Origin: a virus
Lineage: Duplodnaviria; Caudoviricetes
Direction: 5' to 3' (one strand)
Virus record (IMG/VR): IMGVR_UViG_3300010218_000017
Location: 1-43,525 of that record
DNA length: 43,525 nt
Within the stretch, counting starts at the first letter, position 1; each line of letters starts with the position of its first letter. Below, in pieces: positions 241 through 42,924 of this stretch. Under the pieces are notes generated by a model. It made no database searches. It was not told the origin of the DNA and saw only the letters and a list, made by a program, of their open reading frames with translations. Made by a program: the position numbers and the translations under genes.

Positions 241-256
241 TGTGGAATGTTAGAGG
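241..256 (-). promoter_or_regulatory. Conserved motif CCTCTAACATTCCACA (phage RNAP promoter or operator)
   Basis: Same 16-mer at 13031-13046 and 34905-34920; lies upstream of the pentapeptide gene. Confidence 0.75.
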
Positions 257-273
257 GTCGTGACGTGACGTGA

Positions 274-768
274 CTACGCCTCGATTAACTCTTGGTAGAT
301 GTCCTGGATCACAGCGTCCTGCGCTATGCCCTGGCCCGTGGTTGTCCTCGCCCAGACCGTGAGGCCGGCGAAATCCTTATCGACCTTCTCGCCGTGCTCT
401 GCGAGTTTGTCCGCGAGCCAATCGGAGACGATCCAGTGCTCGTAGACTTCACGTTCGTAGGGCTCGATGTGATCAAACTCACACGCCTCCTTCAGTGTAC
501 AGATCGGGTCTCCATCATCATTGTCGATGTCATTCTCGCTTGGCTCCCTGGTCCACATTCCAGGCTCGCCTGGGCCGCATTCGTGCCACCCCGCTTCCCT
601 CGCGGCACTCTCCCAGTCCTCGATAGGTGCCGCGAGTTCCCGCGCCTGCTCCACCAGGTCATTGAGGTCACCCTTGCCGAAGGGCGTACCGTTGGCCAGC
701 GTAGACACCAAGCTTGACACGCAGTAGCAGACTTCGCGTTGGACCATTTGTTCGATGGTGATGGTCAT
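274..768 (-). CDS. Acidic early hypothetical protein
   Basis: 164 aa ORF with GAGG RBS, on the coding strand, tightly packed with its neighbours. Confidence 0.8.
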   Translation of the reverse strand: MTITIEQMVQREVCYCVSSLVSTLANGTPFGKGDLNDLVEQARELAAPIEDWESAAREAGWHECGPGEPGMWTREPSENDIDNDDGDPICTLKEACEFDHIEPYEREVYEHWIVSDWLADKLAEHGEKVDKDFAGLTVWARTTTGQGIAQDAVIQDIYQELIEA

Positions 769-771
769 TGG

Positions 772-1023
772 TCAGTCCTCCCCTTGGCCTTGAGCCGTCC
801 CTAGTGCTGCCCGCATGAACCGCTCAGCGTTGAAGTTGCTATTGGTGTGCTTGAGGTGCCGCGCGAAGTGGAACGCGATGTCTACCCTGTGGTCGCTGTC
901 GCCTGTAAGCTCCTCAATGGGAAGCTCGCGGATGATCTGCGCAATGTAGGCGAAGTGCCTGTGCTGCATGTCTGGCGTGGTGGGCGCTTTGTCTTTGCGC
1001 AATGCTGCCTCTGTGGTGAGCAT
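772..1023 (-). CDS. Early hypothetical protein
   Basis: 83 aa, GAGG RBS, preceded by motif copy 1047-1063; C-terminal NSNFNAERF pattern typical of small phage early proteins. Confidence 0.75.
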   Translation of the reverse strand: MLTTEAALRKDKAPTTPDMQHRHFAYIAQIIRELPIEELTGDSDHRVDIAFHFARHLKHTNSNFNAERFMRAALGTAQGQGED

Positions 1024-1046
1024 GATGGTCTAGCCTCGTGATCTTA

Positions 1047-1063
1047 GTGTGGAATGTTGGAGG
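1047..1063 (-). promoter_or_regulatory. Conserved motif copy (CCTCCAACATTCCACAC)
   Basis: Intergenic; exact ACATTCCACAC core. Confidence 0.7.
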
Positions 1064-1075
1064 GTGGAGGCGGAG

Positions 1076-1669
1076 CTATATCCCTGCGCCGCAGTTGTTC
1101 TCCGCGTATGTAAGTGCTACCTGTCTCTCCCCGGCCTGTCGCACGTAATACTCTGCGCTTGCCTTGGCCTCGTCCTGGACGAGATCGAACCCTATGAAGC
1201 CGCTGCACGAGTCCAGAACGTTGCCGTCCTCATCTTCGATGACGTACTCGTAGGTATCGCCGTTCATCCACATACCGTATTCCTCAGCGATATCCTTGCA
1301 GTACTGGAGGCGTGTTGAGTTTCGCTCACCCTTGCCCTTGCCGAACTCGCTCTTCTTGATAGCCACTATGCCTACCTGGCCGCTGTCCCACGGATCGCCG
1401 AATGGGTTGGCCTCCCCGGCTCGCAGCACCACGCCACTGTGCTCGTACATGAAGAGGTTCGTGACGTACCATTCCTTTCGGTTGGCCTTGATCCACCCCA
1501 ATACTTCATCAGGCGTGCCCCCGACGTCGCTTGCAGGGTTGCCATAGCGGCGATGCAGGATCACCACCTTGACCGCCTCATCATCTATGACTGGAGACTC
1601 GCAGTCCTCGTCATGGTAGAACTTGCAGGTAATGCCGTTGGCATAGCTGATAGTCTCAATAGCTGACAT
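1076..1669 (-). CDS. Early hypothetical protein (YEHSG...WDSGQVG...DSCSGF motif family)
   Basis: 197 aa, GGAG RBS; the motif pattern recurs in phage and mobile-element proteins, function not established. Confidence 0.75.
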   Translation of the reverse strand: MSAIETISYANGITCKFYHDEDCESPVIDDEAVKVVILHRRYGNPASDVGGTPDEVLGWIKANRKEWYVTNLFMYEHSGVVLRAGEANPFGDPWDSGQVGIVAIKKSEFGKGKGERNSTRLQYCKDIAEEYGMWMNGDTYEYVIEDEDGNVLDSCSGFIGFDLVQDEAKASAEYYVRQAGERQVALTYAENNCGAGI

Positions 1670-1754
1670 TGCCGTGTCTCCATCTGGTCTTGCGTTTGGT
1701 TTACCTATGGACAGGCAGCCGGTTGAGACCGCGTGTCCATGCCGTAAGCCAAGC

Positions 1755-1967
1755 TCATTCGCCTAGTGTTCTGACTGACAGTCCCTCCTGCCCTGCCTTG
1801 CGCAGTACCGTGTCAAACTCTACACTCTCGAACCTATTGGGCAGACCTCGAAGCCGCGCAATGCACCAGTCCTCACGCCTATCCGTCGTGTAGTCTTCGC
1901 GGTGCTGTCTAAAGCGATACGTGATGGTGTCCGCCCTCGCGGCTGCGTCGTTCTCATGTTGGAACAT
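1755..1967 (-). CDS. Early hypothetical protein
   Basis: 70 aa, AAGGAGG RBS, degenerate motif copy at 1991-2005. Confidence 0.7.
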   Translation of the reverse strand: MFQHENDAAARADTITYRFRQHREDYTTDRREDWCIARLRGLPNRFESVEFDTVLRKAGQEGLSVRTLGE

Positions 1968-2000
1968 GGGTCTGCCTCCTTGTCCTGACCGTGTGTAATC

Positions 2001-2252
2001 TTAGACTGTCGCGCCAAGCACCAACTCATTGGCGACCGCGACCACGCATTGAGTGTCCGTGTCCTCGACGTCTTCCCACGTAAAGCTCCACCCGCTGACC
2101 CGCAGCCACTCGCACTCATCCGCGTCGTATGCCTTGAACTCGCCATCGAGATCGACATCAGGCTTGACAAAGAGGTGGAGCGTGTAGTCCATCCCACTGT
2201 CGCCAAGGATTTCGCGTGTGTAGCCTGCAAGGATTGCCGTGTTGTCGGACAT
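2001..2252 (-). CDS. Acidic early hypothetical protein (start revised to MSDNTAIL)
   Basis: GGAG RBS before ATG at 2252; motif copy 2275-2297 lies just upstream. Confidence 0.7.
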   Translation of the reverse strand: MSDNTAILAGYTREILGDSGMDYTLHLFVKPDVDLDGEFKAYDADECEWLRVSGWSFTWEDVEDTDTQCVVAVANELVLGATV

Positions 2253-2274
2253 GATGTGTCTCCGCGTGGTGATG

Positions 2275-2297
2275 GTGTGGAATGTGATAGGGTTAGG
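2275..2297 (-). promoter_or_regulatory. Conserved motif copy; 23-bp exact direct repeat with 2603-2625
   Basis: GTGTGGAATGTGATAGGGTTAGG (+ strand) at both positions. Confidence 0.75.
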
Positions 2298-2580
2298 GCA
2301 GTAGGTGCTTAAAGGCGTCCATTGGGCAGAACACAAGCACACCATCCTCGCCTGTCACATAGCCTCTCACAGTCTTGCCTTTGACCTGGCAGGCTGCGGG
2401 CTGGCTGAAGTAGGTATCGGGTTCGCCCGTAGTGTAGACCGTGCGGCGCAACTCACTGCCTTCAATCCTACAGTTCTCTATCTTGGAGAGTGACGGTCCG
2501 CCTATCCACCTAGTGGACCACTGAATCGAACCATCCGATTGTGGCTCGGATATATCTGCGCGGTACTTTTGGAGGCCCAT
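2293..2580 (-). CDS. First early hypothetical protein
   Basis: 95 aa, GAGG RBS, flanked by the two 23-bp repeats. Confidence 0.75.
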   Translation of the reverse strand: MGLQKYRADISEPQSDGSIQWSTRWIGGPSLSKIENCRIEGSELRRTVYTTGEPDTYFSQPAACQVKGKTVRGYVTGEDGVLVFCPMDAFKHLLP

Positions 2581-2602
2581 GATGTCTTTCCTCTTGGTAT
2601 CA

Positions 2603-2625
2603 GTGTGGAATGTGATAGGGTTAGG
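2603..2625 (-). promoter_or_regulatory. Conserved motif copy; 23-bp exact direct repeat with 2275-2297
   Basis: Directly visible. Confidence 0.75.
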
Positions 2626-2804
2626 CCAAAGCCTTTTATCGACATGCTCAGGTCGTCACAGCCACGAGTTAGTGCTCAATGTGAGGGATACCTAGTTCGC
2701 AAGCTGTCCATCGAAGGCGCTCTTGCACGTCCCGTCCCTACTGCTAGCGAAACAATCACTTTGTGTCTGAGTTTCTGTGTTCGTTTCGATGATTTGAAGC
2801 TCTC

Positions 2805-2815
2805 ACATTCCACAC
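2805..2815 (+). promoter_or_regulatory. Inverted copy of the ACATTCCACAC motif
   Basis: Exact 11-mer on the + strand, immediately downstream of a - strand TTGCCA (-35-like, 2820-2825). Confidence 0.6.
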
Positions 2816-2829
2816 AGTTTGGCAAGTAG

Positions 2830-3781
2830 GAATTTTCATCTAGCTCAAACTATTTTATAACTAGATGTATTTATTAGGATATTTCTGCATGTCTGACCGC
2901 CAGTCTGGCGCAATGGTGGCACGAAAAACGCATTGATAGCCCACACTATCATCCTCATTGCTACCTCATGTCCGCACCCCACGCTCACCCCACGCCAGGC
3001 ATGAGGCACGCCCAAACACGCGCCTATCCGCACGTACGCACGTGAGGCAGGGAGCGTAGAGCGAGACGCCAGGTCAGCGTTAGGGTGGACATGAGGTTGT
3101 AGCGCTGCGCTGCGAGACACCATTCATCAGTGCGCAAAGTGACTGCCTAGGGCTATTGATACGATATGTCGTGAACACATAGCTCTAACCGCAAGCCCCA
3201 CCAAATGTGCATACCAAAAGCCACCGATAGCGCCCCGCGACACGCTACCAGACTATACATCTAGTACAATCATGAGGTAAATCAATGCCTTAACCAGCAT
3301 GGTGACACACTTCACGCCCCTCCACCACGTCAAACCGTTTGGAAAACCCGCCGCCACCCCAAGGGGGGAATTGCCCCTGCGTTGCCACGTCGATCTATGT
3401 CTCGCGTGAGCTACCCCTTGAGGCGTTTCGGCAAGCGGATCACAACGTGCATGATCAGAGAGGCTAGCAACGAGCGGATGTACGTCAGGTTGAGCACTAA
3501 AGGTTGTCCTTATGATGGGAGGATCACCTCACCATCCCCTCTGACACTGCAAGGAGGAGCTTCAGGGAGACGGTGAGGAGCGTGGGGTTAGACCTTGGGG
3601 AGGTACTTTAGGCAGACACTTTAAGCACTAATGCGAGGAACAAACTTTAAGTATCAATGAGGATGGTGATGATGTCTATCTCACCATGAGTAGGCTACCT
3701 ATAGGTATACCTAAAGGCTCCCCTGGTCTAAAGGACGCCCATTGTTTGGACATAATTCATTCACAATGTTGCCACACGGCC
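2830..3781. other. Largest non-coding region; probable genome termini / direct terminal repeat region
   Basis: Lies between TerL and the first early gene, as in T7-like concatemer junctions; C(C/T)TAAAG-like short repeats at 3606-3612, 3619-3625, 3645-3651 and 3710-3716 resemble T7 CCTAAAG end repeats. Confidence 0.6.
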
Positions 3782-5644: not shown

Positions 5645-5664
5645 CCTCATCCTCTCTTGGAAAC

Positions 5665-5695: not shown

Positions 5696-5729
5696 CACGT
5701 TCATTCTCTAAGTTTTGGTCGGCAGTAGT

Positions 5730-13047: not shown

Positions 13048-16000
13048 TTACTTCAGCGCGAAGTGCGGCCGATCCACGAAGGACTTAAAGTCACCACCCC
13101 ACTCGATGTTCACCCCAAGCTCCTTGGCGGCTGCCTTCATGGCCTTGGCGATTTCGGCTTGCTTGGAGTGGTCGTTGAAGTCCACCGCACCATCATCCCC
13201 GAGAACCCAGAGGTCGGCCGCCTTGCCATCCAGATGGTCGGACTTCATGGTCTTGGACCAGCCCCACTCCACAGCCTTCTTCTGCTGCTCGGTGGTGCGC
13301 TTGCCGGCCCCGACGACGAACTTGATGCCCGTCTTCTTGCGTGCGAGGTCGATAACCTGGGCGAGTTTCGGATCGACGGACTTGCGGTTCTTCTCATCGT
13401 TGGCCACCGGGTCGCTGTTCCAGTAGAGGAACTGCGGGAGTTCGGCCTGAGGTATCTTGGCGTAGGCAGCAGGCACCGCGTCGGCCTTCTGGCTTGGGTC
13501 CTTGCCGGTCAGGATGGAGTCGAAGGGCGAAGCGCCACTCTTCATCACCTGGAGGGCCGAAAGGACGCTGTCACGAGACACCGAGGCGTGCTGCCCCTTG
13601 TAGGCGCTGGTGCCCCTGTCGGTCGGCAGCGAGGCCCATTCCTTGGCGAGGTTGTTGGCGAAGGTCTTGTCGCTCATCTCGCCGGCAATCCACTTGTCGT
13701 AGCCCCTGAACTTCAGGCGGTCGATCGCAAAGCGGTCCTGCATGGCCTGATCGAACACGGCGTCATCGGGGATGTTGTGCTCCTTGCGCCACGCCCTGAG
13801 CGTCGTCCTGGTGGCCTGGTACCTTCCGACCGCCGACGAGTTCAGCTTGTTGTTCGGGTTCCGCAACATCTTCGTCTGGAGGTCGTCAACCTGCTTCATG
13901 GTCATCTTGGTGAGGTCCACGGGGCCGCCCGTATAGGCTCCGTAGTTCAGCGTCTCATCGTAGCCGCGCCCACGATCGGTCGCCTCGGAGTGGCCCAGAA
14001 GGTTCAGGAACGAAGCGGCCTGCTTGTTGTCGGAGAGTGTCGTGCTCATGCCTTGGTTCTTCACTACGTTGTCGATCATGGTTCCGATCGCGTCAGACAC
14101 CGACTGGGGCGGATGCGAGATCAGCTTGTTGAGGTCTTCCACGGTCGAGGGGATGATGGCGGTCTGGTGATCGGCCGTGTCTGCCTGAGGGTGATCCCCG
14201 AGGTAGAAGGCGTCCTGGGCCTGATGCAGCTTCTCAGCAAAGGCGTTGGCGTTCTCAGGCGTGTCGAACTTCCCGAGGAACTGGCCCGTCTTGTGGTACA
14301 GGTCGATCGCCTCCTGGTCGGTCAAGAGTTTGCCATCAGGGCTGACTGTCGGGACCAGAATTTCCTTGCCATCCTCCTCGAACGACATGGACCGCACGGT
14401 GGCGATGGAGCCGTCTTCGAGTTTGACTTGGGGCCGGTGCTTCAGGTCGATATTGCCTTGCTCCAGGAGCCCCGGCTGTTCGCCTGTGGGGCCTGCTGGC
14501 GTCTCGGCGCTATGGACCACCGTCTTGGCACGCTTCCAGATTTCCGCATTCAGCTCGTCTGGCGTCATCCCAAGCTTCTTGGCGGCGTCCTCGATATACT
14601 TCTGACTATCGTCTGGCAGCGTGTCGATCATCGGCGGGTTGTCGCTCTGGAAGAACTTCTCCACCTCGTTGTTTCCTTGGTGTGTCAGGTCCTCGGGGAG
14701 CGGAGTATTGGCCGTCTGCTCCCGGAACTTCTCCCTAGCGATATCCGCCTCGCCCTTGTACTTGTTGGCGTCCGTACTGGTGAGCTGCGGGTCGATCCTC
14801 TGAAGGATCATATTGCCCGTCTCGTTGATGAACTTCTCGCGATCGATGATCGAAGCGTCAGGGTTCTTGTCGTCCCATTCCATGAGGGCGGACTCAAAGT
14901 CCTGGATCGCCTGGAGAGACTCATCGTTCATCGCCACGTTGCCGAAGATGTCCGTAAATATCTTCTCTTCGGGGCCGTGCATCCGCTCGGCGATGGCCTT
15001 GGTGAAGCGCTTGGCGGTCTGAGACGTGAGGATGCCTGTACCCTCGCGGCGGGCCTTGTCGAACTTCTCCACTCGGTCGAGGAGGGAGGAGAGCGTATTC
15101 GGGTCCCTGATCTTGCCATCGGCGGCGAGCTTCAGGATGTCAGCACGGGTCATCGACCGCTCGGCGATATCACGCTGTATCTGCATGATCTCCTTGGGGT
15201 CTTCGAACTCGCGCTCATCAGCCAGGCTCTTCCTCATCTCGGCGATGTGCTGGCGGGCCTTGGGGTCGTACTTTTCGAGTTCCTGTAGGACGTCCTCAGG
15301 CACCTGCTGATTGGGGTCGGAGGCGATGAGGCGGGAGACGCCAGTCCAGATGACCTCCTCCTTGGCCTTGTCTTCCTTGGCCTGCTTCTTGTCGAGGTCG
15401 TTCTCTTGCTGCCGTGCGATCGTCTCCAGCTTGTCCATGGCGTCTTGCTTGGCGTCTCTGAACAGTGGGTAGTCCTTCAGCGAGACATCATCACCCTCGG
15501 CCTTCTTGTCCAGGAGGTCCAGGAGCTTGGGGTCACGCAGCTCGACGGCCTTGGCGGTGATCGCCGCGACCATCTGCTTGTCGTAGTCCTCCTTGCGCAT
15601 ACCACTGGCGAGCGCCTGCTTGCGCTGCTCCTGGATGTCCGTCCAGAGGGCCTCGTAGTTCGTGCCTTCCTTGGTGTCCAAGCCCTGCTGGTTGGCCGCG
15701 TCTACTGTCCGCCCGGCGATGGCCCCTGCGGTATCTACGGCCCCCTTGTAGACCGAATTGGCGCTGTCCTTACCGAAGACATCATGTCCGTCCTGCCAGA
15801 GCTGCCGGATGTGCGGATTGAGCCCACGGAGGACGTCTGGGTCCTGGGTGTCAACGTTGTTCTTGATGAAGTCGCCGAGGAAGGTGTTGAAGGCGTTCGG
15901 GTCGTTGGAGTTCTTCCCGTCCCACTTCATGTACTCCGCATTGAACTTCTCACGAAGCTGGATACCGGCGAGGTTGCCCTGGGCCGCCTTATAGCTCCGC

Positions 16001-16296
16001 ATGAAGACAGGCGAGGCGTTGGCCGGAACCTTCCCCTGGCGGACTGCCTCAGCCCAACCAAGCGAGTTATTCTCGTTGAAGGCTGCCTCGGCCCTGATCT
16101 TGTCCGCCTCATCGAACTTGGCCTGCCGCTTCTCCATGAAGCTGGAGAGCCCCTCGTCAAACGCTGCGAGGCCCTGGGCGAGATCGTGGAGGGGGCTCGG
16201 TGCCGGCTCTGCGGGTCGGACATAGGTGTTGACGGGCTGGGCGATTGGCTGGATGGCGACTGGAGCGCTGATGCCCTGGAAGGGTGTCCTGGCCAT
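13048..16296 (-). CDS. Internal virion protein, gp15-like, with a lambda-type lysozyme/transglycosylase domain and a C-terminal M15 peptidase domain
   Basis: N-terminal APSPLHDLAQGL gp15 pattern; HSE..RGY...SSAVGRYQ...FDQAMQD...LAKEWASLP; SDHLDGKAADL...WGGDFKSFVDRPHF. Confidence 0.85.
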   Translation of the reverse strand: MARTPFQGISAPVAIQPIAQPVNTYVRPAEPAPSPLHDLAQGLAAFDEGLSSFMEKRQAKFDEADKIRAEAAFNENNSLGWAEAVRQGKVPANASPVFMRSYKAAQGNLAGIQLREKFNAEYMKWDGKNSNDPNAFNTFLGDFIKNNVDTQDPDVLRGLNPHIRQLWQDGHDVFGKDSANSVYKGAVDTAGAIAGRTVDAANQQGLDTKEGTNYEALWTDIQEQRKQALASGMRKEDYDKQMVAAITAKAVELRDPKLLDLLDKKAEGDDVSLKDYPLFRDAKQDAMDKLETIARQQENDLDKKQAKEDKAKEEVIWTGVSRLIASDPNQQVPEDVLQELEKYDPKARQHIAEMRKSLADEREFEDPKEIMQIQRDIAERSMTRADILKLAADGKIRDPNTLSSLLDRVEKFDKARREGTGILTSQTAKRFTKAIAERMHGPEEKIFTDIFGNVAMNDESLQAIQDFESALMEWDDKNPDASIIDREKFINETGNMILQRIDPQLTSTDANKYKGEADIAREKFREQTANTPLPEDLTHQGNNEVEKFFQSDNPPMIDTLPDDSQKYIEDAAKKLGMTPDELNAEIWKRAKTVVHSAETPAGPTGEQPGLLEQGNIDLKHRPQVKLEDGSIATVRSMSFEEDGKEILVPTVSPDGKLLTDQEAIDLYHKTGQFLGKFDTPENANAFAEKLHQAQDAFYLGDHPQADTADHQTAIIPSTVEDLNKLISHPPQSVSDAIGTMIDNVVKNQGMSTTLSDNKQAASFLNLLGHSEATDRGRGYDETLNYGAYTGGPVDLTKMTMKQVDDLQTKMLRNPNNKLNSSAVGRYQATRTTLRAWRKEHNIPDDAVFDQAMQDRFAIDRLKFRGYDKWIAGEMSDKTFANNLAKEWASLPTDRGTSAYKGQHASVSRDSVLSALQVMKSGASPFDSILTGKDPSQKADAVPAAYAKIPQAELPQFLYWNSDPVANDEKNRKSVDPKLAQVIDLARKKTGIKFVVGAGKRTTEQQKKAVEWGWSKTMKSDHLDGKAADLWVLGDDGAVDFNDHSKQAEIAKAMKAAAKELGVNIEWGGDFKSFVDRPHFALK

Positions 16297-21481: not shown

Positions 21482-21504
21482 CCTTTAGTGTGGGAGGTTA
21501 GAGG
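21482..21504 (-). promoter_or_regulatory. Capsid-gene promoter candidate CCTCTAACCTCCCACACTAAAGG
   Basis: Variant of the genome-wide motif; the 3' end CACTAAAGG matches the initiation region of T3 promoters; phi10-equivalent position. Confidence 0.75.
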
Positions 21505-21537
21505 GTCAGGACGGAGTCCGCCCCTTGAGTTCGATCT

Positions 21538-31951: not shown

Positions 31952-32239
31952 TCAGGCTCCGAGCTGCTCCTCAGGATGCTGGATGTTCGGCAGGACGATC
32001 GCGCAGAACTCTTCAGGCCTCGCGGTCTGGCCTCGCTTTCTGCTTCCCTCCGCCTTGGTGGCGGTGACAAGGCAATATGTGTGTGGCTCCAGGACTTGCT
32101 TCCGGGCGTTGTTCTTGACGGTATCAACCACCTTGATGTTCGTCACGAAGCCATGGCCGAGGCCGTGTCCCATCTGCCACACCACATGGTCACCCACGGC
32201 CAACTCGCGGCCGAGTAGATCGAGGGGCTTGTCCATCAT
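31952..32239 (-). CDS. Hypothetical protein (DLLGREL.VGD N-terminus), start revised to MMDKP
   Basis: AAGGAG RBS, ATGA coupling with the upstream gene. Confidence 0.7.
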   Translation of the reverse strand: MMDKPLDLLGRELAVGDHVVWQMGHGLGHGFVTNIKVVDTVKNNARKQVLEPHTYCLVTATKAEGSRKRGQTARPEEFCAIVLPNIQHPEEQLGA

Positions 32240-32499
32240 GCCACTGTCTCCTTCTTGACATCCACAAGTCCGTACTTCCTGTACCGCTTGTTGAGGTGAT
32301 CTTCGGACCATACCGCGCTGATCTCCTTGCCCTGGGCCTGGAGCCATTCCTTGACGCCATCGTTGCGTCTGATCTCGGATATGCGGGTGGTGACGGATGA
32401 GACTCCGTAGGCGTTGAAGGCGACCATGGGGGTCAGCTCCTTGCCAGAGCGGAGGTAGTCCCAGATGAACTGGGCCTGGGGTGAGAGAGGTCGTGACAT
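32236..32499 (-). CDS. Small winged helix-turn-helix protein
   Basis: IWDYLRSGKELTPMVAFNAYGVSSVTTRISEIRR pattern of phage wHTH proteins. Confidence 0.75.
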   Translation of the reverse strand: MSRPLSPQAQFIWDYLRSGKELTPMVAFNAYGVSSVTTRISEIRRNDGVKEWLQAQGKEISAVWSEDHLNKRYRKYGLVDVKKETVA

Positions 32500-34549: not shown

Positions 34550-34867
34550 TCAGAACTTCGGGTCGTTCCTGACCTTCAGCTTGGCGTAGTCTTGCAGGGC
34601 GTCCACCAGTGCGTTCCCGTTACGGTGATGGGGGCGGGGAGCGGTCAAGACCTTGAGCCCGAAGGCGTGCAGCTCGGCGGCGTCCATCTGGGACCGCTCG
34701 GCCACGGCAGCAAACGCCACGGCCACCGCCGCGAGTTGCTCTTCAGGTTTCATCTGGAGGATAGGATCAAGGAGTGTGAACGCGGCGGCTGCGGCGGTGT
34801 CCCTGTTCATCATCATCAGCTTGTCGCGATCGATGCGGGAAGAAAGCTGTGTGGCGTTGATCTTCAT
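34550..34867 (-). CDS. Hypothetical helical protein, first gene after RNAP
   Basis: 105 aa, downstream of motif copy 34904-34920. Confidence 0.75.
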   Translation of the reverse strand: MKINATQLSSRIDRDKLMMMNRDTAAAAAFTLLDPILQMKPEEQLAAVAVAFAAVAERSQMDAAELHAFGLKVLTAPRPHHRNGNALVDALQDYAKLKVRNDPKF

Positions 34868-34903
34868 GGTGGGAACTTTCTGTTATTCTAAAGGACGCGA
34901 ATT

Positions 34904-34920
34904 GTGTGGAATGTTAGAGG
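34904..34920 (-). promoter_or_regulatory. Conserved motif CCTCTAACATTCCACAC immediately after the RNAP stop (phi1.1-equivalent position)
   Basis: Identical to 13030-13046. Confidence 0.8.
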
Positions 34921-34921
34921 A

Positions 34922-37435
34922 TCATGCGAAAAAGTAAGTACTATCAGTCACTTCCTCCAGGTCCAGGCTGCCCTCTGGTAGCGCTCTGGGCCACGCTAGG
35001 CCCTGCTTCGGGTTGACATAGCGGCACCACTCCTGGAACTGCTCCAGCATCGGCTCACTGTGGTTCTCCACGAAGGCCTCTCTGATGCAGGCGTAGAGCG
35101 TCCACATATCGGCCGCCACCGTGCCGTAGCTGTCGTGGATGGTGGTGATGGAGTTGATGCCGGCTCCCCAGGCCTTGTTCACGGCGGTGGTCAGGCAGGA
35201 GGCATCCATGGAGTGGACGAAGTTGGGGGCGATTGCTCGGCCCTGAGCCTTGGGGTCCAGAACGTTGGTTGTCTCCCACATAACCAGGTCCACCCGCTGG
35301 CCGTCGATCTCCGTGTGGATTTGCTTCTTGGCCCGTTCTCCGTAGAACTGCCGCACGATGAAGCCTGATGGTGTCTTCCAGAACAGCGGCTTGCCGTCCG
35401 CGCAGGCCAGGTTGCAGTTGTCCTGGAGCCACTTCATCACGTCTCTCGCCCGGTCCACCTTCGCGCCCACGGCTTCCCAGAGTTTCTTCACCATGTAGCC
35501 GACGTACTCGAAGGCCTCGTGCTCCTGAATGGCGATGTGCTTAGGGTCGTTCTCGATGAGCCAGTCCATGGTGTACTCAAAGTAACTGTGCCGCGTGCCG
35601 CCGTAGGGCAGGATCATCACGGGCCGCTTGGTCAGACTTCTGGGGCACCTTCCGTTCACCGCCGCCAGCCAGACATGGGCCTTGGGCTCGTTGGCCAGGG
35701 CATCGAGTTCCAACAGCTTGGTCAGCTCGTCGGCCACCTCCTGGTAGATGTCTCGTGGCTTGTCGGCGGGGATGAGATTGACCGACGCTCCACCCACCTC
35801 ATCTCGGATCATCGCCGAGAGGTGCTGGATGCCGTTGCAAGTGCCGTCCACCCTGATGGGCAGGGTGGAGACGAAGTTCTCTGGGTCGGCCAGATAGCCG
35901 GTCCACTCGAAGATCGCCGCGAGGGCCTGCCATGCGCTATCCCCCTTGTCGGCCTCGCACCACTCCCTGTTCACGATCGGCTCGTTGGCGATGCGGAACC
36001 ATAAGTCCTGCCTGTCCTCCACCCACTTCACCCGCTCGTCCATTGACACCTTGTCCACCCCGAAGCAGTTGGCCACCTGAAGCGCCAGCCACCAGGCATC
36101 TTCGGGTCCGACCTTCTTGCCCTCGGAGAATGTCAGCAGCCCTCTGTGGAGATCGTCACCCTGCGGCGAGAGGTCTGAGGGGATGGGATACATGCGGCCA
36201 CGGAAGTCCAACATCTGGGGGAAGTAGAAGCACGGCTCGCGGTTCATTCTCTCGGCGGTCATCAGGCAGCGACGGGCGGCTAGGTACTTAGAGACCCGCT
36301 TGGCGTTCCGCGTGTTGACGGCCCCCGCCTCCTTGGCCCAGGTCTTGTGTACCTCTGGGTCGTGGTCGGCCTCGGGTGGCCTCGCTGGCTTGGTCTCGGG
36401 CTCCCGACGTGGCAGGCCGCACAGTCCAAGGTCTAGCTCCCAGAACTGCTGGGCGACCTCCAGCACCTTCGCGTTGATCTTCCAGGCCGTCTCCTGGACC
36501 GCATTGAGGGCGTCATAGACCTGGGGCATGTCGAGGGCCTCGTAGTCGTCAATAGCCCGCTGCTTCTGGTTCTCGTGGTTGGCCCGGAAGCGGATGAGGA
36601 AGGGTGTCTTCACGAAAGGCGTCCAGTAGCCGCCGTCGCGTGGCCCCACCCAGGGCTTGGGCGGGATGAGGGTTGGTAGGAACGTGGCCGAGTGGACCAG
36701 CTCATCATCGGTAGCTGCGTCGAGCCAGGACAACAGGTCGTCATCCGCCTGGAGGACCATCATACGGTTCTTCGGTTTGCCCTTCCTGTGGTTGGTGATC
36801 TTGTAGTTTGGGTCGGGGACGATCCTGAAGCGGCGGGTTGCCTGGATCACACAGTTGATCAGCTCAAGGCCGACCCGGCGTCTCTGCTCATCGGTCCAGT
36901 TCACCCAGCCGATCTTCTCGGACACGAACTTGTTGAAGATGGCGATGCGGGAGCGCTTTTGATGGGCGGCGTTGGAGCCACGCTTCAGGTAGTGCCTGGT
37001 CAGGGCGTCCCATTGCTCCGCATCCGCAGCCTTCCATGCTCTCGCCCGTGCCTCATGTTCGATCCATGTGCCCAGCTCGTAGCCGATCGCGATGAGGCCT
37101 GGTGTCTCGTGCCCGAGCTGCCGCGTGACGACACGCAGAGCGCAGACCGCCGAGACTTCTGCGGGGAGCAACTTCAGTAGCGGCAGTGCGATGGACTTCA
37201 CGCCCCTCTTGGCGGACCCTGCGGCTATCCACTTCTCGATATGCTCGGCGAGCGGCAAGACCCACTCGTGGATCAGGGAGCGTTGGGGGCGGAGTGTGGA
37301 CATATCCCTCGCGGCCTTCGCCCGGTTGATCTTATCTAGGGCCTTCTGCTTGCCCAGTGCGAGCATCTCCTCTTCGAGCGCAACTTCATCGTCCCACCTG
37401 TCGTGCAGGTAGGGTGCGGACTGCATGTTCATCAT
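34922..37435 (-). CDS. Single-subunit DNA-directed RNA polymerase (T7 gp1-like)
   Basis: PPKPW...GGY, DFRGRMYP, DGTCNGIQH (motif A), RSLTKRPVMILPYG (motif B), APNFVHSMD, IHDSYGT (motif C), C-terminal YFFA. Confidence 0.98.
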   Translation of the reverse strand: MMNMQSAPYLHDRWDDEVALEEEMLALGKQKALDKINRAKAARDMSTLRPQRSLIHEWVLPLAEHIEKWIAAGSAKRGVKSIALPLLKLLPAEVSAVCALRVVTRQLGHETPGLIAIGYELGTWIEHEARARAWKAADAEQWDALTRHYLKRGSNAAHQKRSRIAIFNKFVSEKIGWVNWTDEQRRRVGLELINCVIQATRRFRIVPDPNYKITNHRKGKPKNRMMVLQADDDLLSWLDAATDDELVHSATFLPTLIPPKPWVGPRDGGYWTPFVKTPFLIRFRANHENQKQRAIDDYEALDMPQVYDALNAVQETAWKINAKVLEVAQQFWELDLGLCGLPRREPETKPARPPEADHDPEVHKTWAKEAGAVNTRNAKRVSKYLAARRCLMTAERMNREPCFYFPQMLDFRGRMYPIPSDLSPQGDDLHRGLLTFSEGKKVGPEDAWWLALQVANCFGVDKVSMDERVKWVEDRQDLWFRIANEPIVNREWCEADKGDSAWQALAAIFEWTGYLADPENFVSTLPIRVDGTCNGIQHLSAMIRDEVGGASVNLIPADKPRDIYQEVADELTKLLELDALANEPKAHVWLAAVNGRCPRSLTKRPVMILPYGGTRHSYFEYTMDWLIENDPKHIAIQEHEAFEYVGYMVKKLWEAVGAKVDRARDVMKWLQDNCNLACADGKPLFWKTPSGFIVRQFYGERAKKQIHTEIDGQRVDLVMWETTNVLDPKAQGRAIAPNFVHSMDASCLTTAVNKAWGAGINSITTIHDSYGTVAADMWTLYACIREAFVENHSEPMLEQFQEWCRYVNPKQGLAWPRALPEGSLDLEEVTDSTYFFA

Positions 37436-37484: not shown

Positions 37485-37547
37485 CGCAAGAATTTCGACC
37501 CACCGCGCCCCTTCACGAGAACGATGGGTTGGGACTTGGAGTACGAC

Positions 37548-38474: not shown

Positions 38475-38604
38475 TGTCTCTGCTCCATGTTTTCGGAGAC
38501 AGTGTGGAATGCGAGCGATTATGGACAAGCACCTAAATCTAAAGCATTTCTGGATTGTGCTTTTGGATCAGGGACTTAAAGCTACCACACTCCACACTAA
38601 TGTC

Positions 38605-38730: not shown

Positions 38731-38765
38731 GCGCAGCGTCTCCATGGAGCTGCGAATGGTAGTCT

Positions 38766-38975: not shown

Positions 38976-39354
38976 GACGCCTACTCTCCGCCCTCTCCCG
39001 CCTCAGCTCCACCAGCTTCTCCAAGTCATAGTGAGGATCGAACACGCTCTCCCCCTTGTACTTGAACTGCTCGCGGACCTCATGTTCCACCGCAGTCATC
39101 ACCGCCTTGAACACCGTCTGGACGATCTCGCTGTCCGTCATGTGCGGCGAGAGGAGCCACTTGCGGCCGTACCACGTCATGTCCTCGCCTGTCACGTTGT
39201 CCTTGGAGTCCGCCTCGAAGACCTGGGCGTAGAAGTAGCCTCGGGTGTCGTACATGAACTGGACCTGGAGTTGGCCTGGAAGCCTCAGCACGTGGTATAT
39301 GTCCCATAGGCGGACCATGAAGTTGGTCGTAGGGATGTCCACGAAACAGTCCAT
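38947..39354 (-). CDS. Conserved phage hypothetical protein (GRKW.LSPHMT.SEIVQT.FKA...EHE.RE.F.Y motif); start revised
   Basis: The 302-aa track ORF runs across the tRNA; the protein-like part begins at MDCF (39354) or MVRL (39318), downstream of motif copy 39405-39422. Confidence 0.75.
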   Translation of the reverse strand: MDCFVDIPTTNFMVRLWDIYHVLRLPGQLQVQFMYDTRGYFYAQVFEADSKDNVTGEDMTWYGRKWLLSPHMTDSEIVQTVFKAVMTAVEHEVREQFKYKGESVFDPHYDLEKLVELRRERAESRRHGQGQSRSS

Positions 39355-39404
39355 GATGTCCCGTCCCCTAAGCGTCGTGTTGACGCAGATTTGGCGCGGC
39401 GACT

Positions 39405-39422
39405 GTGTGGAATGTTGTAGGG
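39405..39422 (-). promoter_or_regulatory. Conserved motif copy CCCTACAACATTCCACAC
   Basis: Exact core; first copy on the RNAP side of the tRNA/attP. Confidence 0.7.
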
Positions 39423-39622
39423 TTGGTGCCAAAGGAAGCACCAACGGCTTGCCACCGGATACCTCCAGTTCACACTCAAGGTCCACCTCATCGAGAGGGG
39501 GAGGAGTGGCTCCGCTCGGCATCTGGTTGTGAGACAATGCGTCTTCCTTCAAGGCCCTCTCGATTGCCTCCTCCCAGGACTTGCGTGGGTAGACCAGCCC
39601 GTGGTAGAGGCGCTGCTCGGAT

Positions 39623-39707
39623 GCCCCGTTGGCGGAACTGGTAGACGCAGTGGATTTAGGTTCCACCGCCGAGAGGCGTGCAGGTTCGACTCCTGTGCGG
39701 GGCACCA
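39623..39707 (+). tRNA. trnL: tRNA-Leu(TAG), complete 85 nt with encoded CCA; probable attP-containing site
   Basis: Acceptor GCCCCGT/GCGGGGC-A-CCA, D arm GGCGGAACTGGTAGACGC, anticodon arm GTGGA-TTTAGGT-TCCAC, long variable arm CGCCGAGAGGCG, T arm GCAGG-TTCGACT-CCTGT; ~290 nt downstream of the integrase. Confidence 0.95.
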
Positions 39708-39794
39708 CTCCGATTGCATGGGCGAGCCACATAGGTATTTCCAACTGCACCGGTCCCAAGATCGAATGCACGAATGGCATAGTGTGGTATGTTG

Positions 39795-40001
39795 TCATGC
39801 TTTGAATACTCCTTCCTGTATTAAGCCATAAGGCTTTGTCATGATGCGCCTCCAAATCTTGCCGTAAATTTCATCCTGTATGTCCTTGCCTACTCCCAGC
39901 TCTACCGCCCGTTTTATTGTGGCCTCAAGGTAAATCTCAAATGCCTTCTCATGGAGGGCGAGGTGCACCTCTTCCATTATATCCGCTTCGCTCATGTTCA
40001 C
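39795..40001 (-). CDS. Small hypothetical protein downstream of the integrase
   Basis: 68 aa, GTGA coupling with the integrase stop, AAGGAG RBS. Confidence 0.55.
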   Translation of the reverse strand: MNMSEADIMEEVHLALHEKAFEIYLEATIKRAVELGVGKDIQDEIYGKIWRRIMTKPYGLIQEGVFKA

Positions 40002-41200
40002 TTCATAAGCTCCTTCGCAAAGGCGGCCACCTCCTGGGGGCTCGCTCCGGTTTCCTTGTAGGCGATGATGATGTCTTTAAGTTCGGCCGAGATGCTAGCC
40101 ACCTGGGGTTTGACCTCGGGCATTTTCATGTATTTCCTCGCGTCTTCCACCCTCCCGTTCCCTATCAGGTCCAGATAGCCCTCGGTGGTCGTTATGCTCT
40201 CGTGCCGGTAAACCTCCTGGAGCGTCTTGGTTGGCATCCCTCGGGCCGTCGCGTAGGCCCCGAAAGTCCGCCTCAAGGCCCGCAGCGTCGAGCTGGACAC
40301 ATCGTCCACCCCCAGGTGCCGCCGGCAGTCGTTCCACAAGTCCCGCGCCTGTCTGGAGGAGAACGGGAAGAGCTGCTTCCAGTCGTGCTTCCGGGCCCGC
40401 TCGACGCAGCGCTTGAAGATCGGGACCGCCATGTCAAACACAGGGATCGTATTGCCCGACTTCTTGGTCTTGGTGCCTGCCACCTGTATCCTGGGTTCCT
40501 CGCCCTCTAGGTCTATGAGTAGGCGCTCCTGGAGACGCAAGGCCTCCGCTGGACGGAACCCCTGGAAGCAGATGATGGTGATGTAATCCGAGAATAGTTC
40601 CTCGCCATTGAGTGTCAGCCATTTGGTCAACTCATCGAGCTGTTCCGGTCTCAGCCACCACTTCTCCACCCGCTTCACTGGGAGGTGCTTGAAGCCGATC
40701 TTATGCTTAGCCAGAGGTGGCTTCCGTTCCAGCGCCATGTCGTTCAGCACGGAGAGCATCGAGTAATACTTGTTGATCGTCGCGTTGGAGTTTCCTAGTG
40801 CCCTGCGCCAGTCCGTGAACTTCTCGACGTGCTCCGTGTTGATGTCATCGAGGTCTGCACAGCCTCGAAGTTCGAACCAATCGACCACCGGATAGATGGA
40901 CTTCTCCACGATCTTGCCCCAGTCCGTTCCCTTCCAGCGGTATTGGAGTGCGATCTCGGTGATAAACCTCAAGGTCCCGCTCTTGCCCTTCTTATTGCTT
41001 GGGGTCTTCGAGGGGAGAGGCTGATCGCTGTCCTTCACCGGCCACTTGCCGTAGACTTCGAGGGCCTGGGTGATCTCGGTATGGAGCTGCTCGGCGAGTT
41101 CCTCGGTGTCTACGCTGCGTCTGATCCGCTTGTAGCCTGGGAGTGCCGTGGCGACTGCTACGTCTACCTCAAATCTTTTCCCTCTGGGTCGTATTGACAT
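39998..41200 (-). CDS. int: Tyrosine integrase/recombinase
   Basis: SAM-like domain (SNATINKYYSMLS), catalytic GFRPAEA (R), TKTKK (K), RALRRT (HxxR box), RHESITTTEGY (H, Y); adjacent tRNA. Confidence 0.92.
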   Translation of the reverse strand: MSIRPRGKRFEVDVAVATALPGYKRIRRSVDTEELAEQLHTEITQALEVYGKWPVKDSDQPLPSKTPSNKKGKSGTLRFITEIALQYRWKGTDWGKIVEKSIYPVVDWFELRGCADLDDINTEHVEKFTDWRRALGNSNATINKYYSMLSVLNDMALERKPPLAKHKIGFKHLPVKRVEKWWLRPEQLDELTKWLTLNGEELFSDYITIICFQGFRPAEALRLQERLLIDLEGEEPRIQVAGTKTKKSGNTIPVFDMAVPIFKRCVERARKHDWKQLFPFSSRQARDLWNDCRRHLGVDDVSSSTLRALRRTFGAYATARGMPTKTLQEVYRHESITTTEGYLDLIGNGRVEDARKYMKMPEVKPQVASISAELKDIIIAYKETGASPQEVAAFAKELMK

Positions 41201-41594
41201 CGTGGTTTCCGTTCGGTCCTTGCATTAGGTACATGAGCTGGCTGGCTAGAGCCTTGCCTTTGGGTGTCAGAGACACTACCTTCTGCCGCCGGTTGAGGAC
41301 GTATTGGGCAGTCTTGACAAGGCCAAGCCCTGGGACCCCGATCCTCTCGAAGTCCCCAAGGTACCGCAGATGATACGAGGTCGTCGCCATCGGCAGTCCT
41401 ATCTTCTCCGAGAGTTCGGTGATGGTCAGCGGGGTATCCTTGGGGTTGTTGAAGCCCCATATAGCTACCCCGAGGAACGTCTTCATTATGGTCACTGGTA
41501 GTCCGTCACGGACGTTGATCATAACGCCGCACGCCTCAAAGAAGGAGCGGAGCCCCAGGTCTTGCTGCATCGGTAATGCCCCTTCGTTATTCAT
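41169..41594 (-). CDS. MarR-like winged helix-turn-helix regulator (candidate repressor or excision factor)
   Basis: LTITELSEKIGLPMATTSYHLRYL helix-turn-helix plus GLV.......NRRQKVVSLTPKGKAL wing; overlaps the integrase start. Confidence 0.85.
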   Translation of the reverse strand: MNNEGALPMQQDLGLRSFFEACGVMINVRDGLPVTIMKTFLGVAIWGFNNPKDTPLTITELSEKIGLPMATTSYHLRYLGDFERIGVPGLGLVKTAQYVLNRRQKVVSLTPKGKALASQLMYLMQGPNGNHDVNTTQREKI

Positions 41595-41823
41595 GTGGAG
41601 ATTGTCTCTCTCTTGCTCTCATTTACCGCACTGTTCGCGATATGTAAATTATGAAAGGACCGGTATCGGCAATCCACTCGACCCATCTTCCTTCCTTGTG
41701 CTGCGTCTTTGTAACACCCCAGGCCCACTCCTTGACTGACGCCAAGTCCACAGCCCGAGTTACAAAGCATTCCCATCTTCCAAAACGCACACGCATTGTA
41801 GGCACCCCTCGGTTTGTCCTTTA

Positions 41824-41873
41824 CCTCCCCTCCCTTGGAGACCGCCCGAAAGCAGTCCCCTAGGCTTGGGAGG
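41824..41873 (-). other. Long imperfect RNA hairpin capped by UUCG (candidate RNase III site or terminator)
   Basis: - strand CCTCCC-aag-CCT-a-GGGGACTGCT-TTCG-GGCGGTCTCC-a-AGG-gag-GGGAGG; no U tract. Confidence 0.55.
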
Positions 41874-41884
41874 CCCTTGAAGTG

Positions 41885-42373
41885 TCAACCCTGCGCAGTC
41901 TTGCCTTCCTCCTCGTGCTCGACATCCGAAAAGGACTTGCCCTCGACCTCGGCCAGTGACTTCTCGTCGGCCGGCTGGGAGGCCATGGTGCTGGCGACCT
42001 CGACGTCGGCATTCAGCTCATCGAAGGGCTCCAGGCCTAGGACGTCCGCGAGGTTCTCGCTGCGCCAGGTGTGGTCCGCCTCGATCGCCACGAGGTCTCC
42101 CTCCTGGTCCGCCGCCGTCCACGAGAGGTCAGCGTAGTTGAGGGTGTCCTTGGTCATGGCGGCGTAGCCTTCCTCGCCGATCCGCTTGATGTAGAACTCG
42201 CGGTGTTCCTTGAGGTCTGCCACGGCGAGGCCTTCGGCCCACTCGGGGATGGACGCCGGGTCCTCCACGCGGGCCGTGTCGCCGTTTCCTTGGGGGACGA
42301 TGTAGAAGCCGCCTTCGTGTTCATCCTTGGTGATGAGGATGCGGGACGGTAGGGATGTGGTAGTCATATTCAT
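41885..42373 (-). CDS. Highly acidic hypothetical protein
   Basis: 162 aa, D/E-rich, AAGGA RBS, downstream of a TTGACA promoter-like element. Confidence 0.8.
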   Translation of the reverse strand: MNMTTTSLPSRILITKDEHEGGFYIVPQGNGDTARVEDPASIPEWAEGLAVADLKEHREFYIKRIGEEGYAAMTKDTLNYADLSWTAADQEGDLVAIEADHTWRSENLADVLGLEPFDELNADVEVASTMASQPADEKSLAEVEGKSFSDVEHEEEGKTAQG

Positions 42374-42410
42374 GCACTCGTTCCTTCATGTCGGTGAGGG
42401 TTAATGTTTC

Positions 42411-42455
42411 TACCACATATCTAACAATGTGGTATATTGTAGAGTAGTTTGTCAA
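42411..42455 (-). promoter_or_regulatory. Host sigma70-type promoter candidate TTGACA-N17-CCACAT overlapped by a perfect inverted repeat TACCACAT-N8-ATGTGGTA (operator candidate)
   Basis: TTGACA at 42455-42450 (- strand); inverted repeat arms at 42411-42418 and 42427-42434. Confidence 0.65.
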
Positions 42456-42483
42456 GGCCTAGCTGTAATTGATCTGCATCAAA

Positions 42484-42792
42484 TTACTTGCCCTGGGTAT
42501 CGAGCAAGCCGTGCTCGGTCTCAAAGAGGTGCGTGATGGCCCACACGACTGGACGCCTTTTGGACCTTATGAGCGGCGCTATCTTGGTTTCCGGTAGCTT
42601 ACCGCGTTGGATTTCCGCCAGAGTCACTGGCCTTTCGAAGTAGAGGCCGCGAAAGGAGCCCTTGCCCGTCCTGTCGATCCTGCCGATGAACGTATCGGGT
42701 TCCTTAGGGTGCGGGATGAATTGACTTATGTTAATGTTATTGTTCACCAAATCATCCTTTACCGTCTTCTTCTTGTCAACTTCCTTTCGCAT
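42484..42792 (-). CDS. Hypothetical basic protein
   Basis: 102 aa, GAGG RBS, on the coding strand. Confidence 0.6.
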   Translation of the reverse strand: MRKEVDKKKTVKDDLVNNNINISQFIPHPKEPDTFIGRIDRTGKGSFRGLYFERPVTLAEIQRGKLPETKIAPLIRSKRRPVVWAITHLFETEHGLLDTQGK

Positions 42793-42924
42793 TCTGAACT
42801 TAACCTCTTCTTAAAGAACACATTGGCATTACCCCTCGGGTGTGTCAATGTGAACTAGGAATGTTTTCCTTTATGTGGGATGTCGTAGCATAGTGCTGGG
42901 CGTTAGTTCTCCTTTCTTATTGTC

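What the first reader, a model, noticed from the sequence alone, without database searches (positions are those of the whole stretch)
241..42888. Genome-wide oriented ACATTCCACAC motif (~16 copies): candidate control system of a temperate T7-like phage
Seen: the core ACATTCCACA is exact on the - strand at 241, 1047, 2275, 2603, 13030, 34904, 37458 and 39405, and inverted at 2805. Degenerate copies lie at 1991, 21488, 38502, 39782, 42428 and 42874, with one inverted at 38587. Once starts are corrected, all are intergenic or at gene boundaries. Known: T7/T3 promoters sit after gene 1 and before the capsid gene, as the 34904 and 21488 copies do, and the capsid copy ends CACTAAAGG like T3 promoters. 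Unlike T7, the motif also precedes most early genes and the RNAP gene itself, flanks the tRNA/attP on both sides, occurs twice in reverse orientation, and three times overlaps host -35-like elements (2820, 37479, 42450). Inference, three models: (a) phage RNAP promoters forming a positive-feedback loop on the RNAP gene that the lysogen must silence; (b) asymmetric operator/stoperator sites for the MarR-like protein, analogous to mycobacteriophage L5 stoperators; (c) both, with the repressor occluding the phage RNAP promoters. To my knowledge the silencing of a self-amplifying single-subunit RNAP in integrated autographiviruses is poorly understood.
Basis: partly seen in the sequence, partly recalled or inferred. 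Interest (0 to 1): 0.85.

Follow-up and report, generated by a model that had tools for sequence, protein, structure and literature searches.

The report
Repressor sites guarding single phage promoter
A 19-base DNA motif repeated about 17 times in this T7-like phage is likely the binding site of the phage's own MarR-type repressor rather than its RNA polymerase promoter, and one copy overlaps the edge of a separate predicted promoter that would drive almost all replication and virion genes, which suggests how such a phage could stay silent inside its host.

Summary
The motif is real: 9 exact 10-mers against 0.14 expected, and 17 copies of a 19-bp bipartite site (14 along the genes, 3 reversed). 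It is probably not the phage RNAP promoter. A different 17-bp T7-type element occurs twice, after the RNAP gene (34889-34905, overlapping a motif copy by 2 bp) and after the terminase. In 13 related elements its bases fit literature polymerase-loop rules at 23 of 25 testable positions; the motif fits them in no register. The motif instead tracks the MarR protein (rho 0.64), overlaps the host-type -35 region ahead of the MarR-integrase genes in 7 of 8 genomes, and occupies positions like those of a second repeat in phage LUZ100 that lies inside its mapped host promoters. Best reading: genome-wide MarR operators; a roadblock role is unproven. Against: one close relative without detectable MarR keeps the motif, other genes also track it, and the site is asymmetric. 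No binding data exist. No self-amplifying promoter was found before the RNAP gene. MarR repression was already proposed in print, and this scan noted similar networks on other DNA.

The parts
34904..34922 (-). motif copy right after the RNAP stop codon; overlaps positions -17/-16 of the predicted phage promoter
   Evidence: a motif copy or variant abuts or overlaps the promoter in 9 relatives
34889..34905 (-). predicted phage RNAP promoter 1 (-17..-1; +1 G at 34888), upstream of the replication and virion genes
   Evidence: AT-rich -17..-12, T-rich -4..-1, GA start, fits loop rules
3729..3745 (-). predicted phage RNAP promoter 2, after the large terminase gene (+1 G at 3728); no motif copy beside it
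   Evidence: 17 of 19 bases match promoter 1; same position in 5 relatives
42427..42445 (-). motif copy in the spacer/-10 region behind a TTGACA ahead of the g162-small gene-MarR-integrase genes; a weak inverted copy follows after a 1-bp gap
42873..42891 (-). motif copy, early region
   Evidence: 18.4 bits
39405..39423 (-). motif copy between the tRNA gene and the RNAP gene
   Evidence: 29.4 bits
38579..38597 (+). reversed motif copy
   Evidence: 23.8 bits
38502..38520 (-). motif copy
   Evidence: 16.8 bits
   Evidence: 17.7 bits
37457..37475 (-). motif copy 21 bases before the RNAP start codon; no T7-type promoter found here
21488..21506 (-). motif copy before the capsid gene, inside the predicted phage-RNAP transcription unit
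   Evidence: 21.2 bits
13030..13048 (-). motif copy before the gp16-like gene, inside the predicted phage-RNAP transcription unit
   Evidence: 25.8 bits
   Evidence: 13.6 bits
2797..2815 (+). reversed motif copy at the head of the early region
   Evidence: 24.5 bits; reversed copies at the like place in G004 and G001
2603..2621 (-). motif copy before an early gene
2275..2293 (-). motif copy before an early gene
1991..2009 (-). degenerate motif copy before an early gene
   Evidence: 16.8 bits
1047..1065 (-). motif copy before an early gene
240..258 (-). motif copy before an early gene
   Evidence: 1 mismatch to the 11-mer; below 11 bits
41169..41594 (-). MarR-fold winged-helix protein, the proposed binder
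   Evidence: PHROG 9665; model pLDDT 85.7; Foldseek top hits are MarR-family regulators; homodimer model 0.70 against best control 0.00
39998..41200 (-). tyrosine integrase
39623..39707 (+). tRNA-Leu(TAG); attP likely in this region (inferred, not mapped)
   Evidence: prophage relatives are cut between integrase and RNAP
34922..37435 (-). T7-type single-subunit RNA polymerase; loop residues equivalent to T7 746/748/756/758 are Q, H, R, D

Best explanation
The 19-bp motif is likely a genome-wide set of operators for the phage's MarR-fold repressor, and a separate two-copy 17-bp element is the predicted promoter of the phage RNA polymerase. Shown: the motif, its positions, the second element, the 2-bp overlap between them after the RNAP gene, and the covariation of each element with a different protein. 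Inferred: a MarR dimer covers each 19-bp site. In a lysogen it would block the one promoter found upstream of about 31 kb of replication and virion genes, damp host-RNAP transcription of the early region and the RNAP gene, and limit its own operon through the copy at the -35 region ahead of MarR-integrase. Integration between integrase and RNAP also parts the RNAP gene from the early region, as seen in prophage relatives. Least certain (about 0.3): that copies at gene junctions stop elongating polymerase as mycobacteriophage stoperators do.
For: (1) The promoter candidate fits a four-position code (746 and 748 rules from PMC11880802; 756 and 758 taken from the T7 pair itself) at 23 of 25 testable positions in 13 elements, permutation mean 14.9, p=2e-5; 7 of 7 in four more distant elements, p=0.02. 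(2) The motif fits that code in none of 20 registers: best 8.9 of 15, all p at least 0.13. (3) Across 7 genomes motif similarity follows MarR (rho 0.64, p=0.001; recognition helix 0.66, p=0.007) and not the four loop residues (-0.02); the promoter follows the loop (0.53, p=0.014) and not MarR (-0.22). (4) A motif copy lies on or just behind the TTGACA ahead of the MarR-integrase genes in 7 of 8 genomes (one at 11.2 bits); 1.5-3.5% of random 90-base segments reach 12 bits. A weaker inverted copy follows after the same 1-bp gap in 4 of them, and G005 has a pair with that gap after RNAP. (5) 14 of 17 window copies lie outside the main predicted phage-RNAP unit; G007 has none from 3.4 to 33 kb, and G003, G006, G007, G008 and G001 have none before the capsid gene. 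(6) LUZ100 has a second pseudo-palindromic repeat at 13 loci, apart from its mapped phage promoters; 2 lie between -35 and -10 of host promoters P1 and P2, others after integrase, after RNAP, before SSB, before the DNA polymerase and after the capsid gene. Pasto has a palindrome at like places. (7) MarR is present in 9 of 10 motif-bearing and 0 of 6 other relatives; in G410 and G411 the promoter follows the RNAP stop within 18 bases with no family motif. (8) In 118 distant RNAP loci the stretch after the RNAP stop recurs 3 or more times upstream in 21 of 38 with MarR (control 7) and 20 of 80 without (control 23), Fisher p=0.002. (9) MarR fold and homodimer model: 0.70, best control 0.00, runs agree in at least 87% of contacts, pLDDT at least 81; the mark was reached by 20 of 30 solved pairs and 1 of 23 single chains, and the pass may come from likeness to solved MarR dimers.
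Against: G414 (RNAP 54% identical) has no MarR between g162 and integrase and none in its 67%-complete record, yet keeps 10 matches to its own motif variant, 8 outside the large genes. Only 6-8 genomes enter the covariation and they are related: the gene after RNAP (rho 0.52-0.54) and the exonuclease (0.60-0.62) track the motif nearly as well as MarR (0.61-0.69); without G005 the helix test drops to p=0.064 and the promoter-loop test to p=0.10. The window's site is not palindromic, which is odd for a symmetric dimer. In the 118-locus test MarR-positive against integrase-positive MarR-negative loci is not significant (21 of 38 against 7 of 18, p=0.39). With an extended code one of 20 motif registers reached p=0.01. 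Promoter offsets were picked with an AT-rich/GA filter and, for G005, G009 and G010, by eye with the code in mind; the window itself tests only 1 strict position (3 of 3 extended). G412 fitted at 1 of 3 and was left out, as were G415 and G416 (no candidate). Pooled over 78 sites, -35 pentamers near the motif are only 8 against 3.2 expected. No binding or transcript data exist.
Confidence: 0.65

Rival explanations
1. The motif is an operator-like site, but its binder is another phage protein (for example the 105-aa product of 34550-34867, first gene behind the promoter) or a host factor, with MarR doing something else.
For: G414 keeps the motif without detectable MarR. The 105-aa protein is present in all 10 motif-bearing genomes and tracks the motif (rho 0.52-0.54). 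The site is asymmetric.
Against: The 105-aa protein is also in all 6 relatives without the motif and has no Pfam family or named structural look-alike. The 87-aa winged-helix-like protein (32236-32499) is in nearly all genomes and does not track the motif (rho -0.02 to 0.16). Repressor-less D29 keeps the L5 stoperators (PMC5712189, passages; loss of its repressor is recalled), so G414 may be a deletion derivative; its copy beside the promoter fell below its own matrix threshold.
Confidence: 0.2
2. MarR binds the motif but acts at many copies as an activator or positioning factor for early-gene transcription by host RNAP, repressing only where it overlaps a promoter.
For: Most copies are oriented and end 14-37 bases before a start codon; in several relatives the site spans the -35 hexamer, as class II activator sites do (mechanism from general knowledge).
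Against: No conserved -10 or -35 at a fixed distance in 78 pooled sites; most copies are too close to the start codon for a downstream host promoter; the LUZ100 analogue has no mapped start at 11 of 13 loci within 60 bases.
Confidence: 0.07
3. The motif is the phage RNAP promoter, with a feedback copy before the RNAP gene.
For: Oriented copies after RNAP and before the capsid gene; CCACAC core shared with the mapped LUZ100 phage promoters; weak AT bias just downstream; kept in G414 without MarR; no other many-copy motif found after masking.
Against: No fit to loop rules in any register while a neighbouring element fits; G001 and G002 share nearly the same motif with different loop residues, G002 and G004 share three loop residues and promoter bases -10..-7 with different motifs; no conserved start region; absent before the capsid gene in 5 relatives.
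Confidence: 0.05
4. The motif works as RNA (processing or translation signal) or as a recombination cassette boundary for early genes.
For: Many copies lie between a stop codon and a ribosome-binding site; in G003 and G009 the variant includes the Shine-Dalgarno sequence.
Against: Reversed copies, inverted pairs with fixed spacing, and overlap with -35 elements and with the promoter's upstream edge, which would not be transcribed from that promoter. RNA folding was not tested.
Confidence: 0.03

Closest known systems
MarR-integrase module of temperate Autographiviridae (LUZ100, PMC10134795; Pasto, Boeckman et al. 2022, not seen; HTVC019P-type pelagiphages, bioRxiv 10.1101/410191)
   Same: MarR-like gene and tyrosine integrase upstream of RNAP, tRNA-Leu nearby, integration between integrase and RNAP; MarR proposed to repress RNAP expression through binding sites near the RNAP gene.
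   Different: In print the sites are hypothesised near the RNAP gene; here they are spread over the genome. LUZ100 has 8 phage promoters including one before RNAP; here 2 were found and none before RNAP. LUZ100 and Pasto repeats are palindromic; this one is asymmetric. RNAP identity to these phages is only 34-36%.
Operator/stoperator system of cluster A mycobacteriophages (L5 gp71; PMC5712189 passages, PMC9283540 abstract)
   Same: Many asymmetric, mostly intergenic sites oriented with transcription, some overlapping promoters; sites kept in a relative that lacks the regulator.
   Different: That repressor is a two-domain monomer on a 13-bp site; here a MarR-fold protein predicted to dimerise, a 19-bp bipartite site, and a phage-encoded single-subunit RNAP. 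Blocking of elongation is shown there and untested here.
T7/T3-family RNAP promoters (PMC10138996 and PMC11880802 passages)
   Same: The two-copy element has the 17-bp layout (AT-rich -17..-13, specificity -11..-7, unwinding -4..-1, purine start) and follows the loop code.
   Different: The many-copy motif does not; only two promoter copies were found.

Membership tests
T7-family RNAP promoter (the many-copy motif) | bases -11..-7 match specificity-loop residues 746/748/756/758 | tested here: not met
   no register fits, best 8.9 of 15, p at least 0.13
T7-family RNAP promoter (the many-copy motif) | conserved unwinding region and start bases | tested here: not met
   only a weak A/T bias 2-3 bases past the motif (60%, 54%)
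T7-family RNAP promoter (two-copy element 34889-34905, 3729-3745) | 17-bp layout and loop code | tested here: met
   23 of 25 positions in 13 elements; offsets partly chosen by eye
T7-family RNAP promoter (two-copy element) | transcript starts at +1 with the phage RNAP | not testable with these tools
   needs run-off or 5'-end data
MarR-family regulator (41169-41594) | winged-helix fold with N- and C-terminal dimer helices | tested here: met
   (predicted models; Pfam MarR itself not hit)
MarR-family operator | palindromic site | tested here: not met
   window site asymmetric; G005, LUZ100 and Pasto sites are (pseudo)palindromic
MarR-family operator | site covaries and co-occurs with the regulator | tested here: inconclusive
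   for; G414 and other covarying genes against
MarR-family operator | direct binding and repression | not testable with these tools
   needs EMSA, footprint or reporter
Cluster A stoperator system | many asymmetric intergenic sites oriented with transcription, some over promoters | tested here: met
   14 of 17 oriented
Cluster A stoperator system | L5-type monomeric two-domain repressor | tested here: not met
   MarR fold, predicted dimer
Cluster A stoperator system | bound repressor halts elongation in one orientation | not testable with these tools
   needs transcription assay
Temperate Autographiviridae with MarR-integrase module | T7 gene order plus MarR, integrase, and integration between integrase and RNAP | tested here: met
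   integration seen in relatives G001, G003, G009, not in the window's own host

The most novel reading that the evidence does not exclude
A single MarR-fold protein silences an integrated T7-like phage by shutting its one master RNAP promoter and acting as an orientation-dependent roadblock at gene junctions across the genome, a stoperator system evolved independently of mycobacteriophages and aimed at both host and T7-type polymerases, with the site switching between palindromic and asymmetric forms as the recognition helix drifts to give new immunity groups.
Probability: 0.22. Interest if true: 0.78.

Novelty: new variant of a known kind. Interest (0 to 1): 0.55.

Why it matters
How T7-like prophages keep a highly active polymerase silent is hypothesised but, in the papers my searches returned, not shown. 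This analysis separates promoter from candidate operator by sequence evidence and gives exact coordinates for both. It also points to a candidate operator in LUZ100, a phage already in culture with mapped promoters, so the idea can be tested at once. A dozen natural RNAP-promoter pairs that fit the T7 code, each with an abutting candidate operator, could serve as repressible orthogonal expression parts.

Tried and rejected
Single-protein searches for close loci found nothing; alignment searches did. A sample of 401 genomes of the order gave no new clade member. The first de novo motif script timed out with mostly noise; the second missed the window's motif because the 15-bp repeat gene dominated. 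A many-copy second motif was sought after masking and not found; the promoter was found only by comparing post-RNAP sequences. Sigma-70 and terminator scans were at chance level. Sequencing runs: none was listed. Boeckman et al. was not held under the id tried. A likeness to DnaA boxes was considered and dropped without a test (2 mismatches to the recalled consensus, phage-specific variants). Three promoter registers for the motif looked plausible by eye and failed the permutation test. The 87-aa winged-helix-like protein was rejected as binder. The att core of the window was not mapped. Look-alike search by place in earlier findings was empty. G006 lacks the RNAP and MarR region and was left out of all covariation counts.
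Full report
Observation. The conserved unit is 19 bp: an 11-bp block, 3 bases, then CACAC or CACAT. A matrix from this phage and relative G004 gives 17 sites at 11 bits or more, 14 along the genes and 3 reversed.

Setting. The window is a circularly permuted T7-like phage with a MarR-like gene (41169-41594), integrase (39998-41200), tRNA-Leu (39623-39707), RNAP (34922-37435) and T7-order replication and virion genes. Isolated phages are at most 36% identical in RNAP. Closer relatives (50-67%) include prophages of Rhizobiales-type bacteria. I fetched 16 related elements plus LUZ100 and Pasto. In prophages G001, G003 and G009 the RNAP gene is at one end and MarR-integrase at the other; G003 has a 50-bp direct repeat at a tRNA bounding the element. 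This matches attP between integrase and RNAP in pelagiphages (passages).

The motif is a family. G004, G008, G007, G001 and G002 carry 10-20 copies of variants of the same 19-bp frame, with a freely varying 3-base spacer; G005 has a pseudo-palindromic variant. A leave-one-out matrix finds 2-22 hits in these and the window against shuffle means of 0.2-0.9, and 0-1 in the six distant relatives without MarR. G003 and G009 have their own repeats. G007 has no copy from 3.4 to 33 kb, and five relatives have none before the capsid gene, unlike a T7 promoter set.

A separate promoter. Directly behind the post-RNAP copy lies a 17-bp element with an AT-rich head, T-rich tail and GA start. In the window it spans 34905-34889 and recurs once, after the terminase (3745-3729, 17 of 19 bases); five relatives repeat theirs at that same place. 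No copy was found before the RNAP gene in the gene direction at 14 of 19 matches; weaker promoters could be missed. I scored loop residues against promoter bases with 746R-C(-7) and 748D-C, K/N-G(-11) from PMC11880802 (sections 15 and 16 read) and the T7 pairs 756R-C(-9), 758Q-T(-8). The fit is 23 of 25 in 13 elements (permutation mean 14.9, p=2e-5) and 7 of 7 in the four more distant ones. An automatic pick in 9 elements with my extended code gave 26 of 32, p=0.0002. Offsets for G005, G009 and G010 were chosen by eye; G412 (1 of 3), G415 and G416 (no candidate) were left out. The many-copy motif fits the strict code in none of 20 registers; with the extended code one register reached p=0.01.

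Who reads the motif. Among 7 genomes it tracks MarR (rho 0.64, p=0.001) and not the loop residues (-0.02), while the promoter does the reverse. G001 and G002 have identical recognition helices and nearly the same motif but different loops. A copy sits on or behind the TTGACA ahead of MarR-integrase in 7 of 8 genomes, with a weaker inverted copy after a 1-bp gap in 4. MarR is the only protein with a DNA-binding annotation that is present in 9 of 10 motif-bearing and 0 of 6 other relatives; a few virion and unannotated families show a similar split. It models as a MarR fold and as a homodimer (0.70, best control 0.00; mark reached by 20 of 30 solved pairs and 1 of 23 single chains; runs agree in at least 87% of contacts; pLDDT at least 81; likeness to solved MarR dimers may explain the pass).

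Outside calibration. LUZ100 has mapped phage promoters and, apart from them, a pseudo-palindromic repeat at 13 loci: two between -35 and -10 of host promoters P1 and P2, the rest at junctions like those used by the window's family, none at a fixed distance from a phage start (I took the ends of the annotated 50-base windows as starts). The main text has no hit for 'operator' or 'palindrom'. I read parts 2-4 of 8; Table 1 is not held as text and the 10 supplements were listed, not read, so the repeat may be noted there. Pasto has a palindrome at like places; Boeckman et al. 2022, which I could not see, may describe it. In 118 of 240 distant RNAP loci with enough flank, the post-RNAP stretch recurs upstream in 21 of 38 with MarR and 20 of 80 without (controls 7 and 23; p=0.002), but not significantly against the 18 integrase-only loci (p=0.39).

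Against. G414 has RNAP 54% identical, no MarR or its small upstream gene between g162 and integrase, and still 10 matches to its own variant. It may be a deletion derivative like D29, which keeps L5's stoperators, but its record is 67% complete and another binder is possible. The gene after RNAP and the exonuclease track the motif almost as well as MarR, so shared descent is not excluded. The asymmetric site is unexpected for a dimer. Nothing here shows binding, repression or a roadblock.

Mechanism. Likely, MarR made from the host-type promoter ahead of its operon binds the 19-bp sites, shuts the one promoter found upstream of about 31 kb of lytic genes, damps early and RNAP-gene transcription and limits its own synthesis. 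A roadblock role at junction copies is possible; T7 RNAP is recalled to pass many bound proteins, so it may apply mainly to host RNAP (a search listing on this was not read further).

Known and new. MarR repression with RNAP feedback is hypothesised for LUZ100 and Pasto; dispersed oriented sites are known from cluster A mycobacteriophages (abstract). Five searches returned no paper mapping genome-wide MarR sites in T7-like phages; subscription journals are mostly not covered. After I had reached this reading, the scan's notes showed five follow-up reports with the same idea on other DNA and one that assigned a repeat to a different protein; they are unchecked and not counted as support. Verdict: real, a new variant of a known kind, interest 0.55.

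Noticed in passing
L271 (LUZ100) 373, 574, 3848, 3936, 3992, 6686, 6962, 11566, 13192, 14656, 22147, 34508, 34997: Second, pseudo-palindromic repeat distinct from the mapped phage promoters; candidate operator of gp10, not mentioned in the main-text passages searched.
   Followed up: partly
L272 (Pasto) 392, 551, 697, 1300, 3532, 5034, 8686, 8767, 8867, 11855, 12369: Palindromic repeat in the early region, around the tRNA and after RNAP.
   Followed up: partly
window 41623-41796 (-): Small ORF just before MarR; similar small ORFs were seen by eye in G001, G003, G004 and G005 and are missing together with MarR in G414. No family at a useful E-value.
   Followed up: partly
window 41885-42373 (-): Acidic 162-aa protein conserved ahead of the integrase in 15 of 16 clade elements compared, with or without MarR; function unknown.
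   Followed up: partly
window 34550-34867 (-): 105-aa protein, first gene behind the predicted promoter, conserved across the clade; only unnamed viral look-alikes.
   Followed up: partly
window 32236-32499 (-): 87-aa winged-helix-like protein (weak HTH_39 hit) before the primase, present in nearly all relatives and LUZ100.
   Followed up: partly
window 1-100 and 43340-43525: 15-bp-period repeat gene (pentapeptide-repeat-like) split by the record's ends; the repeat number may be mis-assembled.
   Followed up: no
G003 (L268-L270) and G009 (L291-L293): Their repeated sites include the Shine-Dalgarno sequence, so the candidate operator and the ribosome-binding site overlap.
   Followed up: partly
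G010 (L295, about 34900-36650 in the contig) and G412 (L301, 600-8500): Relatives without MarR have their own early-region repeats (about 5 and 7 copies), unexplained and only slightly above shuffles.
   Followed up: no
window RNAP residues 200-234: The region matching the T7 intercalating hairpin is longer and rich in K/R in this clade.
   Followed up: no
window 13048-16296 (-): The gp15-position virion protein carries endolysin-like and M15 peptidase domains at its C-terminus.
   Followed up: no
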